Below, one piece after another: positions 1 to 41,250 of a stretch of 52,329 bases of DNA. Where the stretch lies: the sequence record MT446419.1, one strand, 5' to 3'. The notes beneath the pieces were generated by a model. That model was given only the letters and a program-made list of their open reading frames with translations. It had not been told where the DNA came from and did no database searches. Origin of the DNA: Escherichia virus TH53. Both the position numbers and the translations under genes were made by a program. Positions within the stretch are counted from its first letter, which is position 1, and each line of letters opens with the position of its first letter.

Positions 1-332
1 TCAAATTGTTTCAATATTAATGAGACTAGAATTCGTAACAAAGCTACGAGACTCGAATTGTGGCGATATTATTTTATTTTTGAGGTGGCGGGGAGGGGAA
101 GCCCAACGTCCTATCGGACTTAAAATACGGTCCCTACCCCAACTTTTTCCTACAGCCTATCGGCTTTCAAACAACACCAAGTTAGGCGCTTCGCTTATGG
201 GTCAAGGTCAAAGTCTCCGTGCTGTTGTAACAATGGCACAGGTTTGTGATATTAGTTGGAAGTGAATTGTGTAATGGCTACGCTATTATAATCCGTTTCA
301 GTTAAATCATACACAATCTTGGAGACTTACAA

Positions 333-2273
333 ATGACTACTATCACCACTCAAACTATCAAATCCGTTGTTCCTGCTATCACTGCTCTGGTATACCGTGC
401 CAAAGAGAAACAGAACTATATGCAGCCTCAGACTTGTGCTATTGCTGCCTTAGCCATCTTCAAGATGATGACGTCTTTCACTCGTGATGACGTTGTTCCT
501 GCCATCGCGATGGTTGAGCTGGCTTCTGCTTCTATTGCTGATGCCAACCGTTATAACAACGATTTGAAAGCAATGCACTATGTTGACCCAGCTATCAACC
601 TCATTGGTCTGGCTAAGCACTTTGGCTTCATCACCATGAACGAAGACAAGTCATTCCAACAAACTGATACATGGGTTGAGCTGGTTACAACTAAAGACAC
701 CGCAGTGCCATTCACTGAGCGTGTTACATCTGAATCTCGTCGCAAGCCTTTCGTTAAAGGTGGCAAAGTTAAGCCATCCAAGACTCTGAAAGCTGCAATC
801 GAATTCCTGCAAGATACTGAGTACCATGTGGAGACTGAGATGGTTCGCATCATCCAGTCCATGATTGAGCAACGTACTTATGGTGGCTTGCAGATGCCAG
901 AAGCAATCCAGACTGAACTCCATGTTTGGAACAATGCTGTAGCAATGATGAATCAGGATAAGCTGTATTCTGACTACTTTGCTGATAACCGTGGTCGTCT
1001 GTATCATGTAGCATGTGCTGGTCCTAACCCACAATCCTCTGACTTTGCTCGTTGCTTGTATTCTCACAATGTTGAGAACATCGTTAAAAAGTTTAACGAA
1101 GATGGTTCTACTACCATTGCATACAACATGTTCATGGCTGAGCTGGAAGATATTTCCGGTGGTGAATGGTGCAGTGCTAAGCGTTTAACTTATGTTGCTC
1201 AGAATCCAGCTGGTTCACTTGCTCGCATGATGAACATGCCTAAAGCTGAACGTCCTTCTAAGCCATTCACTTATGTTCGTCTGGCTCTGGATTGGTTCAA
1301 GTTTGAGACTACAGGTGAGTGTGATTCTCGTGTAGGCTTCGGCTTAGATGCTAAATGTTCTGGTACTCAATATCTGGCATTCATTGCTGGTAACATGGAA
1401 ATGGCTCGTGCAACAGGTCTGGTTGATTCTGAGACTAAAGCATCTGACCCATACCAGTTATCTCTTCGTGAACTGTTGAAGTTATTGGACCGTTCTTCAA
1501 TGAAGCCATCTCCTGAAATTATGGATGAATTCTTGAATCCGAAAGCTGGTCGTAAGTTTATCAAAACTCCATACATGGCTATCCAATATGGTGGTGGTAA
1601 AGCTGCATTGACTGGTTCTTCTGACTTCATTAGCTACATGACAGAAGCGCTCCAGATTCCTATGGAGAAAGCTGAGGCATTTGCTGAACTGTGTGTAGAA
1701 GCAATCCATAACGCATTGGGTGCTAAGATTAACATGTTCATTGAGAAGGCTGCTGATGCTGCATACAACCGTTGTGTTGAACTTGGTAAAGAGTACATCA
1801 CATACCGTCACACTGATGGTCAGGTTGTAATGAAGCCTTGCTTCCCATCTCGTGAAATCTGTGAGGCATTCAGCATTCGTGTTGACTCTCAAACTCGTGT
1901 TATCTTTGGCCAGATTCAGGAGAATAAGCCTTGGACCATTCGTGAATCCAATCCAACTAAAGAAGAATTCAAGCGTACTTTCGTTGTTAACTACATTCAA
2001 GGTATTGACGCATTGGTTGCTCGTACTGTTGCAGTTAAGGCTAAAGAAGCTGGTCTTCGTGGCTTCACTTCAATCCACGATTGTTTCCGTTGCTGCTTAG
2101 CTGATGCTCCACGCATGATGGAAGTTATTCGTGCAGCATATGTTGAAATCTTCGTAACCAACAATCAATTCGAGAATCTGTCTAAGCAACTTGGTGGCAT
2201 TCAGATGTATCATGAGAACATCGTAACCGAAGAGCTTCTGATGAGCGAACACGCTTACTACTTCTGTCAATAA
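333..2273 (+). CDS. single-subunit T7-like DNA-dependent RNA polymerase, short 646-aa form
   Basis: Seen: motif B-like RKFIKTPYMAIQYGGGK (T7 RSVTKRSVMTLAYGS) and motif C-like SIHDCFRC (T7 HDSFGT). Inference: about 240 aa shorter than T7 RNAP, so most of the N-terminal domain is absent. Confidence 0.85.
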   Translation: MTTITTQTIKSVVPAITALVYRAKEKQNYMQPQTCAIAALAIFKMMTSFTRDDVVPAIAMVELASASIADANRYNNDLKAMHYVDPAINLIGLAKHFGFITMNEDKSFQQTDTWVELVTTKDTAVPFTERVTSESRRKPFVKGGKVKPSKTLKAAIEFLQDTEYHVETEMVRIIQSMIEQRTYGGLQMPEAIQTELHVWNNAVAMMNQDKLYSDYFADNRGRLYHVACAGPNPQSSDFARCLYSHNVENIVKKFNEDGSTTIAYNMFMAELEDISGGEWCSAKRLTYVAQNPAGSLARMMNMPKAERPSKPFTYVRLALDWFKFETTGECDSRVGFGLDAKCSGTQYLAFIAGNMEMARATGLVDSETKASDPYQLSLRELLKLLDRSSMKPSPEIMDEFLNPKAGRKFIKTPYMAIQYGGGKAALTGSSDFISYMTEALQIPMEKAEAFAELCVEAIHNALGAKINMFIEKAADAAYNRCVELGKEYITYRHTDGQVVMKPCFPSREICEAFSIRVDSQTRVIFGQIQENKPWTIRESNPTKEEFKRTFVVNYIQGIDALVARTVAVKAKEAGLRGFTSIHDCFRCCLADAPRMMEVIRAAYVEIFVTNNQFENLSKQLGGIQMYHENIVTEELLMSEHAYYFCQ

Positions 2274-2313
2274 TATTAATTGGTCAAGGATGACCACAAA
2301 CTTGGAGACTACA

Positions 2314-2514
2314 ATGAATACTCAACAAATCAATCAAATCGAAAACTGTTTCAATCCTCACCACACTTGTAGCATGACTGATTTATCTCGTCCTACAGTG
2401 GAGGAGACTAAAGACTTCTTAGAATTGTTAGCAGAATATAAACAAGAGTCGCATGTATTATTACATTCATTCTTACACAATTCTGGATACTTTGATACAG
2501 AGATACCATTCTAA
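2314..2514 (+). CDS. hypothetical small protein with C-terminus ...GYFDTEIPF
   Basis: ORF in track from 2290; second in-frame ATG at 2314 has GGAG 7 nt upstream. C-terminal FDTEIPF resembles the E. coli SSB tail DFDDDIPF. Confidence 0.45.
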   Translation: MNTQQINQIENCFNPHHTCSMTDLSRPTVEETKDFLELLAEYKQESHVLLHSFLHNSGYFDTEIPF

Positions 2515-2520
2515 TATTGA

Positions 2521-2546
2521 GCCTGTCTTCGGACGGGCTTTTCTTG
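2521..2546 (+). terminator. intrinsic terminator-like hairpin
   Basis: GCCTGTC-TTCG-GACGGGC stem-loop (one G-U pair) followed by TTTTCTTG, directly after the stop at 2514. Confidence 0.5.
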
Positions 2547-2611
2547 TGTTACCACAATTTAATTCCAATATTCAAGCAATATTGCTGCATGTAATATTGT
2601 TTCAATATTCG

Positions 2612-2630
2612 ACATTAGTTGGATGTGAAG
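2612..2630 (+). promoter_or_regulatory. conserved motif ACATTAGTTGGATGTGAAG, candidate phage-RNAP promoter, copy 1
   Basis: One of seven intergenic copies of a roughly 19-nt motif, all on the + strand. Confidence 0.5.
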
Positions 2631-3451
2631 TAACAGAATACGGAGAAGTATTCCGCATGTCATGTTGAAATCATTCTAGAAACATTTCAGCATGTCAACT
2701 AAACATACAGTGTTGTAATGATGTGGCAATCATTGAACTCCCTGTCTTTGGCCGGACAAAGTTCCAACAACCATGTGTGAAGTAGGATTATCATTCGAAA
2801 CTGTTACTTCAATATAGCATGTTCAATTGCGACAATATTGCCCCATCTCCTATTATAAAGGCCCACCCACAAGCCGGGAGATAACTTTGGTAATATTGGA
2901 ACTTTTGGACATGCTTCTTTCTTTCAATCAGAATTCGAAAGGGGAGAAGAAGTCGGACAAAGCCTCTCGTTTTCACGCAGAAGCCGCCCCGATTTTGAGC
3001 AACAAATATTGTGACAATATTGTCGCAGTATGGCATGTAAATATTGCTACAAATTGGCATGTTGGAATGTGGCAGAATTGTTAGAGGACTAATCACCTCG
3101 AAGATACAATCGTCTACCAATCTGGCATGTTAATTTTGTAACAGTATTTGTGCCAATTTCGCATGTAGTATTTAACCCAATATTCTTGCAACCCGCATGA
3201 ATACTGGCTTCCAGCCAAGCGAAGGCTTTATCATCGCATGTAATATTGTGACAATATTGGGATAAAACCCTTTATTTAATTAGTTTTATTATGCTGTACA
3301 TGGTCGGTTTTCCGTACCTGCTTGCTCCAATCTTAATGTGCCAAATACGTTAAGTATGGGAGTAAACCTGTAATTAATGGTGCATGTTTAATTGTGACAA
3401 AATTCGTCTATTTGGCAGATGAGTTAGTTGCAATTAAGCATGTTCATTTAT

Positions 3452-3470
3452 CATTAGTTGCATGTGAATA
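3452..3470 (+). promoter_or_regulatory. variant motif CATTAGTTGCATGTGAA, copy 2
   Basis: Degenerate copy about 190 nt upstream of the first early gene at 3662. Confidence 0.35.
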
Positions 3471-3661: not shown

Positions 3662-3880
3662 ATGACTCGTTTTAAAGATTTGGAAGACGGTGCAATCTTC
3701 TTTACGCGTGGTGGAGAACACCTGCAAAAAGTTTTGGAAGATGATGTTAATGTAAATGCAGTATTCGTTGGTGATTCTAACATTGGTGTTTTATTAAATG
3801 ACAATGAAAGAACTTTTACTGAGGAGGAGTTTAAAGAAATCTCAGCCTCTGATTTAGTTCAAGAGCCAATTGAAGCCTAA
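3662..3880 (+). CDS. hypothetical protein (early region)
   Basis: ORF with AGGAG 7 nt upstream of ATG. Confidence 0.55.
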   Translation: MTRFKDLEDGAIFFTRGGEHLQKVLEDDVNVNAVFVGDSNIGVLLNDNERTFTEEEFKEISASDLVQEPIEA

Positions 3881-7351: not shown

Positions 7352-7370
7352 ACATTAGTTGGATTTGAAG
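7352..7370 (+). promoter_or_regulatory. motif ACATTAGTTGGATTTGAAG, copy 3
   Basis: Ends 74 nt upstream of the ATG at 7444, the same spacing as the copy before 13357. Confidence 0.55.
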
Positions 7371-7443: not shown

Positions 7444-7818
7444 ATGGCACAATATTCAGATGTAAACACTGGCATCATCGGTCCTAACGGCTTCAAGAAA
7501 GACCCAAAACATCCTGACATTCGTGGACGTATTAACGTTGACGGAATCTGGTATTGGGTATCTGGCTGGAACAAGCAAGCAAATGGTAATGAGTTTACCT
7601 CACTTGCATTAACCATCATGACCCAAGAACAGGTCGATGAAATGATGCGTAAGCGTGAAGAGAAGGCTAAAGCCAAAGCTCAACCTCAAGCTGCCGCTCA
7701 ACAGCAACAGCAACGCCAGCAGCCTTCTGCACAACAGCAAGCACCTGCTCAGCAACAGCAGCAGAGCAACTACAACCCGAACGAGCCGAAAGACTTCGAC
7801 GACGACATTCCGTTCTAA
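7444..7818 (+). CDS. protein with E. coli SSB-type C-terminal tail (DFDDDIPF), possible ssDNA-binding protein or SSB-tail mimic
   Basis: Seen: C-terminus PKDFDDDIPF preceded by a Q/A-rich linker. Established: DFDDDIPF is the E. coli SSB C-terminal tip that recruits SSB-interacting proteins. Inference: the N-terminal 70 aa may be a small OB-like domain. Confidence 0.6.
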   Translation: MAQYSDVNTGIIGPNGFKKDPKHPDIRGRINVDGIWYWVSGWNKQANGNEFTSLALTIMTQEQVDEMMRKREEKAKAKAQPQAAAQQQQQRQQPSAQQQAPAQQQQQSNYNPNEPKDFDDDIPF

Positions 7819-11183: not shown

Positions 11184-11200
11184 ACATTAGTGGGATTTGG
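11184..11200 (+). promoter_or_regulatory. motif ACATTAGTGGGATTTGG, copy 4
   Basis: Preceded by TCTGAA as in copies 5 and 6. Confidence 0.45.
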
Positions 11201-11324
11201 TTCTGGCCACTTAGGGAAGAAAGGCATTATACACTTATCGCCAAATGGGTGTCAAGCATTTTCTTCATTTATTTTAATTTATTCTTATTATTCTTTTTGT
11301 TTGGAATATTGGAATAATTCTGAA

Positions 11325-11343
11325 ACATTAGTTGGAATTGAAG
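11325..11343 (+). promoter_or_regulatory. motif ACATTAGTTGGAATTGAAG, copy 5
   Basis: Tandem with copy 4, about 140 nt downstream, separated by an AT-rich stretch. Confidence 0.5.
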
Positions 11344-13262: not shown

Positions 13263-13283
13263 ACATTAGTTGGATGTGGAAAG
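13263..13283 (+). promoter_or_regulatory. motif ACATTAGTTGGATGTGGAAAG, copy 6
   Basis: Ends 74 nt upstream of the ATG at 13357. Confidence 0.55.
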
Positions 13284-13356: not shown

Positions 13357-13695
13357 ATGGCTAAGATTGTAACCGTAACTCAGTACGAAGCTAACGATGG
13401 TTCCCTGTTCCTGACCGAAGCAGAGTGTAATGCACACGACTTCAAACTGGAAAACGGTGCTAAAATTGAGAAAGCTGCCGAAGCGTACCTGAACACCGTT
13501 GGTGCTATCGACCGTTCTCGCTCCATGCAGAAGAACACCATCGAGCAGTTCCTGGCATTCTACCTGCCGTGGGTTGAAGCTGGTGAGCCGGAAGTTGAGC
13601 GTACTAAGTTCGATACTCCGAAAGAAGCTAAAGTTGCTGACGCAAGTGTTGCCGAAGCTGCCGAAGCTGCGGTTGAAGAAGCTCCGGTATTCTAA
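13357..13695 (+). CDS. acidic, alanine-rich protein
   Basis: Strong RBS, own promoter-like motif, acidic C-terminal tail ending in F. Confidence 0.6.
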   Translation: MAKIVTVTQYEANDGSLFLTEAECNAHDFKLENGAKIEKAAEAYLNTVGAIDRSRSMQKNTIEQFLAFYLPWVEAGEPEVERTKFDTPKEAKVADASVAEAAEAAVEEAPVF

Positions 13696-21101: not shown

Positions 21102-21373
21102 TGAAAACTGTATATTCTATTTTCGATATGCAGGAATTGGAGCATCACATGTTTGCTACTGATTCCGAAGTTCTTGCAAAGGATGCCGTAATGGCGTTTC
21201 TTGAAAAGATTAAGGGCAACGTATTCGCTTCGTCCGACCCACAGTCTCAAGCACTTAATGACGAGACATTTAAAAGTCTCCAAACTTTAATTTCGGCAAC
21301 GTCTTCATTTGAAGAGCTGTCCGAAGCATTAGTTGAATATGACTTCCGACTTGCTATGTTGCAGGTCGACTAA
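21101..21373 (+). CDS. hypothetical protein
   Basis: ORF overlapping the DNA polymerase stop. Confidence 0.5.
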   Translation: MKTVYSIFDMQELEHHMFATDSEVLAKDAVMAFLEKIKGNVFASSDPQSQALNDETFKSLQTLISATSSFEELSEALVEYDFRLAMLQVD

Positions 21374-26536: not shown

Positions 26537-26722
26537 ATGCGCACAATACAATGTCCTAACTGCCATTATGAAATTGCAGAAGATGATTTCATAACGCAAC
26601 AATGTCCTATCTGTGATTCATATATGCCACTAAACCGCCTGTATTTAAAGGCCGATTCTGGTTTAGGCAGCATCATTCGCATCAATCCTGTGCAAACCCA
26701 GCCATTAGTGGATTGTGATTAA
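26537..26722 (+). CDS. zinc-ribbon protein
   Basis: CPNCHY ... CPICDS; GGAG RBS. Confidence 0.5.
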   Translation: MRTIQCPNCHYEIAEDDFITQQCPICDSYMPLNRLYLKADSGLGSIIRINPVQTQPLVDCD

Positions 26723-41209: not shown

Positions 41210-41225
41210 ACATTAGTTGAATATG
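41210..41225 (+). promoter_or_regulatory. motif ACATTAGTTGAATATG, copy 7
   Basis: 26 nt upstream of the gene at 41251. Confidence 0.45.
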
Positions 41226-41250
41226 TATTAATTTCAATAGGTATATTGCA

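What the first reader, a model, noticed from the sequence alone, without database searches (positions are those of the whole stretch)
333..2273. Unusually short single-subunit RNA polymerase
At 646 aa it keeps the palm and fingers motifs but is about 240 aa shorter than T7 RNAP, a size close to the two-piece N4 RNAP II combined. Such minimal enzymes need accessory factors or unusual templates, which links to the hairpin-like palindromes and SSB-tail proteins nearby.
Basis: partly seen in the sequence, partly recalled or inferred. Interest (0 to 1): 0.5.

Follow-up and report, generated by a model that had tools for sequence, protein, structure and literature searches.

The report
Compact T7-type phage RNA polymerase
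This is the already-annotated single-subunit RNA polymerase of phiEcoM-GJ1-like (Chaseviridae) coliphages: an intact but very compact T7-family enzyme that has never been tested biochemically and most likely reads its own 16-18-bp duplex promoters.

Summary
ORF 333..2273 (+) encodes a 646-aa T7-family single-subunit RNAP with every catalytic motif. It is 237 aa shorter than T7 RNAP and 27 aa shorter than N4 RNAPII (269+404 aa).

It is not new. The window is a whole Carltongylesvirus (Chaseviridae) genome, and the protein is 99.8% identical to the annotated RNAP of phage EcoM1. A length of about 630-650 aa is fixed across the clade.

Most of the missing length is in three regions:
- The N-terminal domain is 161 aa against 325 in T7.
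- The thumb is 47 aa against 86.
- The fingers are 147 aa against 185.

The intercalating-hairpin region and a specificity-loop hairpin are kept. The predicted N-terminal core has a winged-helix fold.

The idea that the enzyme needs cofactors or unusual templates is not supported, but it is not excluded:
- A strand-specific intergenic motif, CATTAGTTGGATGTGAA, occurs 8 times against 0.78 expected, and relatives keep it.
- The motif sites do not form hairpins.
- No N4 gp1 or gp2 homologue is present.
- The neighbouring small ORF with an SSB-like tail is not conserved.

My best reading is an autonomous T7-like promoter-specific transcriptase. An N4-RNAPII-like dependence on a factor is the real rival. 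Only biochemistry can decide between them.

The parts
333..2273 (+). Coding sequence of the 646-aa single-subunit RNA polymerase (stop codon included)
   Evidence: ORF list; Pfam PF00940 E 6e-18; PHROG 414 E 4.5e-98; 99.8% identical to the annotated RNAP of phage EcoM1; AF2 model pLDDT 91.4; best fold matches are T7 and mitochondrial RNAPs.
333..815 (+). Compact N-terminal domain, aa 1-161, against 325 aa in T7. Helices 6-25, 32-46, 57-73 and 87-97; a beta-hairpin at 100-110; helix 112-118; the conserved basic loop RRKPFVKGGKVKPSK; helix 150-161.
630..662 (+). Beta-hairpin at aa 100-110. It is the counterpart of the T7 intercalating hairpin (T7 230-245) and also the 'wing' of the winged-helix-like core.
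   Evidence: DSSP strands at 100-102 and 107-110. hhalign maps q86-121 to T7 212-257 with mean confidence about 6 of 9.
816..956 (+). Shortened thumb, aa 162-208: 47 aa against 86 in T7
   Evidence: Domain budget from the hhalign alignment. The junction q150-175 to T7 314-339 aligns with confidence 8.7.
957..2270 (+). Palm and fingers catalytic core, aa 209-646, with all catalytic residues and the C-terminal ...YYFCQ (F644 aligns with T7 F882)
1839..1958 (+). Specificity-loop region, aa 503-542: beta-hairpins, 40 aa against 32 in T7, net charge 0
   Evidence: Strands at 506-510, 513-516, 522-525 and 534-537. The region aligns to T7 739-770 at low confidence, 3.6. It is conserved among phages that share the CATTAGTTG motif and differs in VPs20, which has a different motif.
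251..266 (+). Phage-promoter-like motif ATTAGTTGGAAGTGAA, 67 nt upstream of the RNAP start; a possible autoregulatory promoter
   Evidence: Motif search. A motif copy lies at the same position before the RNAP gene in Faunus, PP101 and Y2. Distance to the ORF.
2614..2629 (+). Phage-promoter-like motif, an exact consensus copy, just after the terminator that ends the RNAP-ORF2 unit
   Evidence: It corresponds to 'putative phage promoter 1' in the phiEcoM-GJ1 record.
3453..3468 (+). Phage-promoter-like motif ahead of the early small-ORF cluster that starts at 3662
   Evidence: phiEcoM-GJ1 'putative phage promoter 2'.
7354..7369 (+). Phage-promoter-like motif, 75 nt upstream of the SSB gene
   Evidence: phiEcoM-GJ1 'putative phage promoter 3'.
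11327..11342 (+). Phage-promoter-like motif (2 mismatches). A weaker copy with 4 mismatches lies at 11186-11201.
13265..13280 (+). Phage-promoter-like motif, 77 nt upstream of ORF 13357
21328..21343 (+). Phage-promoter-like motif (3 mismatches, core intact), 61 nt upstream of ORF 21404
41212..41227 (+). Phage-promoter-like motif (3 mismatches, core intact), 24 nt upstream of ORF 41251
2519..2540 (+). Intrinsic-terminator-like hairpin with a T run, closing the RNAP-ORF2 unit
   Evidence: Consensus scan: 9-bp stem, 5 GC pairs. A rho-independent terminator is annotated directly after the RNAP gene in SA91KD; correspondence to this hairpin was not checked.
2290..2514 (+). ORF2, 74 aa, ending ...YFDTEIPF (an SSB-C-terminus-like tail). 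It is not conserved next to the RNAP.
   Evidence: Translations of ORF2 and its counterparts. It is present in 4HA13 and replaced by an unrelated ORF in phiEcoM-GJ1 and Faunus.

Best explanation
The ORF is the complete, functional single-subunit RNA polymerase of a Carltongylesvirus (Chaseviridae, phiEcoM-GJ1-like) coliphage. It belongs to the T7 family but is a compact version. The palm and fingers core is nearly full size and carries all catalytic residues. The N-terminal domain is cut to half, the thumb is cut to about half, and one fingers insertion is missing.

The N-terminal domain keeps a helical and winged-helix-like core. The wing of that core corresponds to the T7 intercalating hairpin. 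The enzyme also keeps a specificity-loop hairpin.

I infer the following mechanism. The gene lies at the genome's left end and is first transcribed by host RNAP. The enzyme then recognises a duplex promoter of about 16-18 bp (consensus aACATTAGTTGGAtGTGAa) placed before the early, replication and structural gene blocks, and before its own gene. It then transcribes the rightward, single-strand-coded genome as T7 RNAP does, without an obligatory cofactor.

Only 85 residues precede the helix-hairpin unit, against 211 in T7, so the enzyme cannot hold all the T7 modules that refold at promoter escape. It therefore probably goes from initiation to elongation without the large T7-type N-terminal rearrangement. 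The sequence and structural identity are shown here. Promoter use, autonomy and the lack of refolding are inferred.
For: Identity:
- Pfam PF00940 above its cut-off and PHROG 414 at E 4.5e-98.
- 99.8% identity to the annotated EcoM1 RNAP, 99.5% to ST32 and 92% to phiEcoM-GJ1. The window matches these genomes at 89-95% nucleotide identity.
- Invariant catalytic residues.
- A confident AF2 model, pLDDT 91.4.

Compact but intact:
- Length is conserved in 105 of 119 clusters.
- Profile-profile alignment to T7-like RNAPs gives E 1e-44 and spans q2-645 to T7 67-883.
- The hairpin region aligns with confidence about 6 and the NTD-thumb junction with 8.7.

Promoter:
- The motif occurs 8 times at 3 or fewer mismatches, all on the + strand and before ORFs, against 0.78 expected; 0 of 100 shuffles reach 8.
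- It is the top de novo intergenic k-mer.
- Faunus, PP101 and Y2 show the same motif and the same strand bias. A Hafnia prophage whose RNAP is 52% identical also keeps the core.
- Vibrio phage VPs20 (RNAP 36% identical) has a different repeated motif, CTCGCCCACTAG, and a different specificity loop.
- The motif sites have no common hairpin.

Cofactors:
- No N4 gp1 or gp2 homologue is present.
- ORF2 is not conserved.

Literature:
- The phiEcoM-GJ1 and SA91KD records annotate these sites as putative phage promoters.
- The PP101 paper hypothesised eight such promoters (PMC6989608).
Against: - No biochemical or transcript-mapping data exist for any Chaseviridae RNAP in the searched literature. The ICTV profile says the promoters 'have not yet been identified' (PMC12842549).
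- The size plan, a truncated NTD plus a truncated thumb, is that of N4 RNAPII. That enzyme binds only single-stranded DNA and needs gp2 (PMC4496689).
- No counterpart of the T7 AT-rich recognition loop could be aligned, and the first 85 residues align to T7 only at low confidence.
- The specificity-loop region has net charge 0 against +2 in T7.
- A short thumb may limit processivity, yet promoter-like sites lie up to about 14-20 kb apart in the late region.
- Cofactors need not resemble the N4 ones, so failing to find homologues is weak evidence.
- The winged-helix assignment rests on a predicted structure.
Confidence: 0.6

Rival explanations
1. The enzyme is a factor-dependent minimal RNAP of the N4-RNAPII type. 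With its reduced N-terminal domain and thumb it cannot bind or melt duplex promoters alone. It needs a phage or host protein (for example an ssDNA-binding protein) to open or present the promoter, and the conserved motif is read partly or wholly by that factor.
Against: The enzyme is a single polypeptide, not a heterodimer. It is closer to T7 than to N4: hhalign gives E 2.8e-14 against 1.6e-8, and nothing for gp15. No gp1 or gp2 homologue is present. The conserved motif is 16-18 nt long with a 9-nt invariant core. That is unlike the minimal AT-rich -7..+2 promoter of N4 RNAPII (PMC4496689). The motif changes together with the specificity loop between the subfamilies. The adjacent IPF-tailed ORF is not conserved.
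Confidence: 0.28
2. The enzyme is an N4-virion-RNAP-like polymerase that reads hairpin (extruded cruciform) promoters with help from SSB.
Against: The strand-specific repeated motif sites do not fold into a shared hairpin: z-scores run from -2.5 to +1.3 with different structures. The palindromes are confined to one non-coding region and are not placed before gene blocks. They look like dimeric-protein operators or origin repeats. N4 vRNAP is a weaker fold match than T7, mtRNAP or N4 RNAPII. A DFDDDIPF tail on an SSB is the usual handle for replication and repair partners (established knowledge of E. coli SSB).
Confidence: 0.04
3. The enzyme is a truncated, decaying or mis-annotated gene: a wrong start, or a split gene whose N-terminal part is encoded elsewhere.
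For: One cluster representative is 704 aa (P0001). Database records disagree on the start: SA91KD annotates 749..2602.
Against: An in-frame stop lies 12 codons upstream and a good Shine-Dalgarno sequence is present. The length is conserved in 105 of 119 clusters down to 35% identity. The N-terminal 160 residues are conserved and fold confidently. No other ORF resembles a T7-type N-terminal region. The 58 extra N-terminal residues of P0001 are unrelated sequence joined directly to MTTISTQ....
Confidence: 0.02

Closest known systems
RNA polymerase of phiEcoM-GJ1-like phages (Chaseviridae; PHROG 414), e.g. EcoM1, ST32, phiEcoM-GJ1 gp01
   Same: It is the same protein: 99.8%, 99.5% and 92% identity, the same first-gene position, the same length (646-648 aa) and the same putative promoters.
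   Different: Nothing of substance differs. The literature calls it a 'large' T7-like or podovirus-like RNAP and does not discuss its compactness (PMC12842549, PMC13340011).
Bacteriophage T7 RNA polymerase (883 aa; Autographiviridae)
   Same: The right-hand fold, all catalytic motifs, the DxxGR motif, the C-terminal aromatic tail, an intercalating-hairpin counterpart and a specificity-loop hairpin are shared. The genome logic is also shared: a one-strand genome with a promoter-like motif of about 17 nt before gene blocks.
   Different: It is 237 aa shorter: NTD -164, thumb -39, fingers -38, foot -9, specificity loop +8. T7 residues 1-66 have no counterpart and no AT-rich recognition loop can be aligned. 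There is too little sequence to hold both the C-helix and subdomain H modules that refold in T7. H784 is replaced by an invariant Gln. A phage-type promoter sits upstream of the RNAP gene itself. Sequence identity is only about 16%.
Bacteriophage N4 RNAPII (gp15 269 aa + gp16 404 aa; PDB 6dt7)
   Different: This enzyme is one polypeptide, not two. It has no detectable sequence relation to gp15 and no gp1 or gp2 cofactor homologues. Its candidate promoters are long and specific rather than minimal and AT-rich. N4 RNAPII has been shown to need ssDNA and gp2. Nothing has been shown for this enzyme.
Mitochondrial RNA polymerases (yeast Rpo41, human POLRMT)
   Different: They are far larger, with N-terminal extensions, and they depend on initiation factors (Mtf1, TFB2M/TFAM). 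This comes from established knowledge and the PDB entry titles.

Membership tests
T7-like single-subunit RNA polymerases (Pfam PF00940) | Significant match to the family profile | tested here: met
   PF00940 scores 65.3 bits against a cut-off of 22, E 6e-18. Profile-profile alignment to T7-like RNAPs gives E 1e-44.
T7-like single-subunit RNA polymerases (Pfam PF00940) | Catalytic motifs: A (Asp), B (Arg/Lys/Tyr), C (His-Asp) and DxxGR | tested here: met
   D339, R407/K411/Y419, H582-D583 and D218..R222 are all invariant in 54 sequences and align to T7 D537, R627/K631/Y639, H811-D812 and D421..R425.
T7-like single-subunit RNA polymerases (Pfam PF00940) | Right-hand Pol I-type fold closest to phage and mitochondrial RNAPs | tested here: met
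T7-like single-subunit RNA polymerases (Pfam PF00940) | Specificity loop (a beta-hairpin inserted in the fingers) | tested here: met
   Beta-strands span 506-537 at the position of T7 739-770. Residue-level alignment confidence is low. DNA reading is not tested.
T7-like single-subunit RNA polymerases (Pfam PF00940) | Intercalating beta-hairpin in the N-terminal domain | tested here: met
   A hairpin at aa 100-110 aligns to T7 227-246 with confidence about 6. It is 11 aa against 16.
T7 RNAP proper (autonomous Autographiviridae-type enzyme) | AT-rich recognition loop (T7 93-101) | tested here: inconclusive
   Only 2 of 9 loop residues align. The query has a 6-residue linker (aa 26-31) between the two helices. 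The alignment here has low confidence.
T7 RNAP proper (autonomous Autographiviridae-type enzyme) | Full N-terminal domain of about 325 aa with the refolding modules (C-helix 28-71, subdomain H 153-205) | tested here: not met
   The NTD is 161 aa. Only 85 residues precede the helix-hairpin unit, against 211 in T7.
T7 RNAP proper (autonomous Autographiviridae-type enzyme) | Cofactor-independent specific transcription from a duplex promoter of about 17-23 bp | not testable with these tools
   The evidence is indirect only: a conserved strand-specific intergenic motif.
N4 RNAPII-type minimal RNAP | Heterodimer of two gene products (gp15/gp16) | tested here: not met
   A single uninterrupted ORF.
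N4 RNAPII-type minimal RNAP | Truncated N-terminal domain and thumb | tested here: met
   NTD 161 aa and thumb 47 aa. DxxGR lies at 218 against 236 in gp15. The description of N4 RNAPII is from PMC4496689.
N4 RNAPII-type minimal RNAP | Presence of the gp2 (and gp1) cofactors | tested here: not met
   phmmer of N4 gp1 and gp2 against the six-frame window gives nothing below E 0.4. Non-homologous cofactors cannot be excluded.
N4 RNAPII-type minimal RNAP | Activity only on single-stranded or pre-melted templates | not testable with these tools
   This needs in vitro transcription.
N4 virion RNAP (hairpin-promoter enzyme) | Promoters are short DNA hairpins | tested here: not met
   The eight motif sites, folded as ssDNA, give z-scores of -2.5 to +1.3 and share no structure.
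Chaseviridae RNAP (PHROG 414) | Close identity to annotated members, and first-gene position in a 52-56-kb one-strand myovirus genome | tested here: met
   99.8% to 66% identity to Cleopatravirinae RNAPs. Genome synteny and layout agree.

The most novel reading that the evidence does not exclude
This clade (604-650 aa) holds the smallest single-chain T7-family RNA polymerases, smaller than N4 RNAPII, which a review calls one of the smallest. Their N-terminal domain would be reduced to a winged-helix-type promoter-binding core without the T7 refolding modules. If the enzyme still recognises its 16-18-bp duplex promoter alone, it would combine T7-like autonomy with N4-RNAPII-like promoter escape that needs no refolding. 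That would define the minimal autonomous single-subunit RNAP.
Probability: 0.35. Interest if true: 0.55.

Novelty: already known. Interest (0 to 1): 0.3.

Why it matters
The gene has been known since the 2008 phiEcoM-GJ1 paper and helped define the family Chaseviridae, so finding it here is ordinary. What no paper in the searched library appears to state is how small the enzyme is and where the missing residues lie. It has half the T7 N-terminal domain, half the thumb and a winged-helix-like core, and its size plan matches the factor-dependent N4 RNAPII. Yet its genome carries candidate promoters of T7-type length. If it is autonomous, it sets a lower bound on what a promoter-specific single-subunit RNAP needs. 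It would also be a compact orthogonal polymerase for in vitro transcription and synthetic biology. If it needs a factor, it extends the N4 RNAPII paradigm to a single-chain enzyme in an unrelated phage family. Either result is a modest advance that one biochemical experiment could deliver.

Tried and rejected
- Single-sequence search of the PDB gave only weak T7 matches (E 3e-3). Profile-profile alignment was needed.
- A search for a second ORF supplying a T7-type N-terminal region, or for N4 gp1, gp2 or gp15, found none.
- The hairpin-promoter idea was rejected.
- ORF2 (IPF tail) was rejected as an obligate partner because it is not conserved.
- De novo k-mer search on whole genomes was swamped by coding repeats. 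Restricting it to intergenic DNA recovered the motif.
- No strong sigma-70 consensus lies upstream of the RNAP gene at the scan's threshold. The -35 hexamer annotated in phiEcoM-GJ1 (TTGACG) reads GCTACG here. How the gene is first transcribed therefore stays open.
- Rfam and tRNA scans of the window found nothing.
- The Jamalludeen 2008 and Molodtsov & Murakami 2018 papers are not held. Their content is cited only through other papers or from memory.
- Literature searches for a biochemical or transcriptomic study of a Chaseviridae RNAP found none.
- No tool gave residue-level structural superposition, so the mapping of the first 85 residues onto T7 remains tentative.
Full report
**Observation.** The ORF at 333..2273 (+) is real: ATG start, 646 codons. 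A GGAGA Shine-Dalgarno sequence lies 8 nt upstream and an in-frame stop lies 12 codons upstream. It matches Pfam RNA_pol PF00940 at 65.3 bits against a cut-off of 22, E 6e-18. It matches PHROG 414 'RNA polymerase' at E 4.5e-98, with residues 16-645 covering profile positions 154-816 of 816. T7 RNAP is 883 aa, so this protein is 237 aa shorter. N4 gp15 and gp16 are 269 and 404 aa, 673 in all.

**What the window is.** The first 8 kb match about 50 phage records. Identity is 95.5% to Escherichia phage EcoM1, 94% to ST32 and 89% to phiEcoM-GJ1 and Mangalitsa, all Carltongylesvirus, Chaseviridae. All long ORFs lie on the + strand in the order RNAP, small early genes, SSB, replication, packaging, head, tail, lysis. 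Relatives have the same layout.

The protein is 99.8% identical to the annotated RNAP of EcoM1, 99.5% to ST32 and 92% to phiEcoM-GJ1 gp01. The ST32 paper lists ORF1 as a 646-aa RNA polymerase (PMC6266442). The gene is therefore already known. It appears in the title of the 2008 phiEcoM-GJ1 paper ('a podovirus-like RNA polymerase'), cited in PMC12842549. It is also one of the two markers used to define the family (PMC9699118).

**Is the shortness real?** Yes, and it is a property of the clade.
- Of 119 homologue clusters at 90% identity, 105 are 600-670 aa with a median of 643, down to 35% identity.
- An exhaustive HMMER scan found 712 representatives at E of 1e-3 or better. Many are 600-730 aa. 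The 780-900-aa T7-like enzymes appear only at E of about 1e-10 and weaker.
- No other ORF in any frame of the window resembles the N-terminal 411 residues of T7-like RNAPs, so the gene is not split.
- One 704-aa cluster representative carries 58 unrelated residues joined to MTTISTQ... and looks like a gene-call fusion.

**Where the residues are missing.** A family alignment of 54 sequences was compared with a profile of T7 plus 30 T7-like representatives. This gave E 1e-44 over q2-645 and T7 67-883.

| Region | This enzyme (aa) | T7 (aa) |
|---|---|---|
| N-terminal domain | 161 | 325 |
| Thumb | 47 | 86 |
| Palm and palm insertion | about equal | about equal |
| Fingers | 147 | 185 |
| Specificity-loop region | 40 | 32 |
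| 'Foot' | 33 | 42 |

- The catalytic residues map one to one: D218/R220/R222, D339, R407, K411, Y419 and H582-D583. F644 aligns to T7 F882. T7 H784 is an invariant Gln here.
- Alignment confidence is high for the core and for the NTD-thumb junction (q150-175 to T7 314-339, 8.7 of 9).
- It is moderate for the helix-hairpin-helix unit (q86-121 to T7 212-257, about 6).
- It is low for the first 85 residues.
- The firm statement is therefore arithmetic. Only 85 residues precede the helix-hairpin unit, against 211 in T7. T7 fits its N-terminus, C-helix subdomain, first half of the promoter-binding domain with the AT-rich loop, and subdomain H into those 211 residues (domain limits from the T7 structural literature, from memory). 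The compact enzyme cannot hold all of these.

**Structure.**
- The AF2 model is confident, with pLDDT 91.4 and pTM 0.85.
- Foldseek ranks T7 RNAP first at E 3e-19, followed by mitochondrial RNAPs.
- The secondary-structure order is helix 32-46, strand 55-56, helix 57-73, helix 87-97, strand 100-102, strand 107-110. That is the canonical winged-helix order.
- The 'wing' is the segment that aligns to the T7 intercalating hairpin.
- A conserved basic loop (RRKPFVKGGKVKPSK, net +6 over aa 126-150) follows.
- This part rests on predicted structures, and no residue-level superposition was available.

**Promoters.** The phiEcoM-GJ1 and SA91KD records annotate 'putative phage promoters'.
- The consensus ATTAGTTGGATGTGAA occurs 8 times in the window at 3 or fewer mismatches, all on the + strand. 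The expectation is 0.78, and no shuffle of 100 reached 8.
- All eight sites lie before ORFs: the RNAP gene itself, the early cluster, SSB, and ORFs at 13357, 21404 and 41251. Distances to the next ORF are mostly 24-200 nt, and three of the sites fall inside short ORFs of 62-90 aa.
- The aligned sites share an invariant ATTAGTTG, usually preceded by AAC.
- The motif is the top k-mer in a de novo search of intergenic DNA.
- Erwinia phages Faunus and Y2 and Pectobacterium phage PP101 (RNAPs 71-77% identical) show the same motif with the same strand bias.
- A Hafnia alvei prophage with a 52%-identical RNAP keeps the CATTAGTTG core seven times.
- Vibrio phage VPs20 (RNAP 36% identical) instead has a different repeated + strand motif, (GGGCTCG)-N4-5-CTCGCCCACTAG, at seven sites. 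Its specificity-loop sequence also differs. The loop is nearly identical among the phages that share CATTAGTTG.
- This coarse co-variation is what a polymerase that reads its promoter through the loop would produce.
- The PP101 paper had already hypothesised eight such promoters (PMC6989608). The ICTV profile says the promoters are not yet identified. No transcript mapping was found.

**Cofactors and unusual templates.**
- Folded as single strands, the eight motif sites show no common hairpin; z-scores run from -2.5 to +1.3. They are not N4-virion-RNAP-type promoters.
A GCATGT..AATATTGTGACAATATT element occurs 4-6 times. All copies sit in one non-coding stretch, about 2550-3450, and none sits before a gene block.
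- Two proteins end in ...IPF. The SSB (7444-7818) ends DFDDDIPF and ORF2 (2290-2514) ends YFDTEIPF.
- ORF2 is conserved in 4HA13 but replaced by an unrelated ORF in phiEcoM-GJ1 and Faunus, so it is not an obligate partner of the polymerase.
- N4 gp1 and gp2 have no homologue here.
- These negatives do not exclude a non-homologous cofactor among the many small early ORFs.

**The case for the rival.** The rival should be taken seriously. [quoted passage not shown] It binds only single-stranded DNA and needs gp2 (PMC4496689). Its N-terminal domain and acidic specificity loop have been proposed to serve cofactor recruitment rather than DNA reading (as reported in PMC7145618). The present enzyme has the same size plan: DxxGR at 218 against 236, and a C-terminal part of 429 aa against 438. 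It is slightly smaller still, and some relatives are only 604-631 aa. The evidence against the rival is as follows:
- It is a single chain.
- It is closer to T7 than to N4, with hhalign E 2.8e-14 against 1.6e-8 and nothing for gp15.
- Its candidate promoters are long and specific, not minimal and AT-rich.

**Verdict.** The finding describes a real gene correctly, but the gene is already annotated. Its identity as the Chaseviridae single-subunit RNAP is essentially certain. I give 0.6 to the autonomous T7-like mechanism at the CATTAGTTGGATGTGAA promoters, probably without T7-type N-terminal refolding. I give 0.28 to a factor-dependent N4-RNAPII-like mechanism. The hairpin-promoter and artefact readings get very little. 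What this analysis adds is the domain-level account of the compaction, the winged-helix-like N-terminal core, and the genome-wide and cross-genus support for the promoter motif. Interest is modest. One in vitro transcription experiment would settle the question.

Noticed in passing
window 2550-3450: About 1 kb after the RNAP-ORF2 terminator has no convincing ORF. It is packed with a repeated element, GCATGT followed by the 17-nt palindrome AATATTGTGACAATATT or near-copies, 4-6 copies in all. It lies between two phage-promoter-like sites (2614 and 3453). It looks like a set of operators for a dimeric DNA-binding protein, or origin repeats. No Rfam family matches it.
   Followed up: partly
window 2290-2514: ORF2 (74 aa) ends ...YFDTEIPF, resembling the C-terminal tip of bacterial SSB. 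It is conserved in phage 4HA13 (gp03) but replaced by an unrelated 54-55-aa ORF in phiEcoM-GJ1 and Faunus. It may be a decoy for host SSB-binding proteins.
   Followed up: partly
window 7444-7818: The 124-aa phage SSB has a long Q/A-rich linker and ends DFDDDIPF. From memory, that is the same tip as E. coli SSB, which suggests it recruits host SSB-partner proteins.
   Followed up: no
L008 (phage 4HA13) 1-3120; by homology window about 1-3100: In 4HA13 the RNAP gene lies inside the 3,120-bp direct terminal repeat predicted by PhageTerm (PMC9699118). Virion DNA would then carry two copies of the polymerase gene and of the palindrome-rich region. The window does not repeat its start at its end, so this could not be checked here.
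   Followed up: partly
L010 (Hafnia alvei chromosome, 4.8 Mb) and L013 (Pseudomonas brenneri chromosome, 6.3 Mb): Compact RNAPs of this clade (52% and 38% identical) sit in bacterial chromosomes next to integrase genes, lysis genes, tail and baseplate genes and ArdA. The layout suggests integrated prophage relatives of a family described as strictly lytic.
   Followed up: partly
L009 (Vibrio phage VPs20) 2318, 2352, 2473, 3555, 5107, 8238, 20997: A candidate promoter for the Nefertitivirinae-type RNAP: (GGGCTCG)-N4-5-CTCGCCCACTAG, seven + strand copies with at most 1 mismatch in the core. The VPs20 RNAP is annotated only as 'hypothetical protein' and as 718 aa.
   Followed up: partly
window 43-72 against L001 (phiEcoM-GJ1) 364-393: The sigma-70 promoter annotated upstream of the RNAP gene in phiEcoM-GJ1 (TTGACG-N17-TATTAT) has its -35 hexamer changed to GCTACG in this window. 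The consensus scan finds no good sigma-70 site on the + strand before the RNAP gene. How the polymerase gene is first expressed is unclear.
   Followed up: partly
window 251-266 and equivalents in L005, L006, L007: A phage-type promoter motif sits directly upstream of the RNAP gene in this phage and in Faunus, PP101 and Y2. That implies positive autoregulation. From memory, T7 has no such promoter upstream of gene 1.
   Followed up: partly
database records: Start-site annotation of this gene is inconsistent. SA91KD annotates 749..2602 (617 aa) although the match to the 646-aa form begins at 665. The PYps records lack an RNAP annotation. One cluster representative (P0001) is a 704-aa fusion with unrelated upstream sequence.
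   Followed up: no
window 26704-26719 and 11186-11201: Two weaker copies of the promoter motif (4 mismatches). One lies just before the terminase ORF, and a similar copy sits before the Faunus terminase. They may be weak or late promoters.
   Followed up: no
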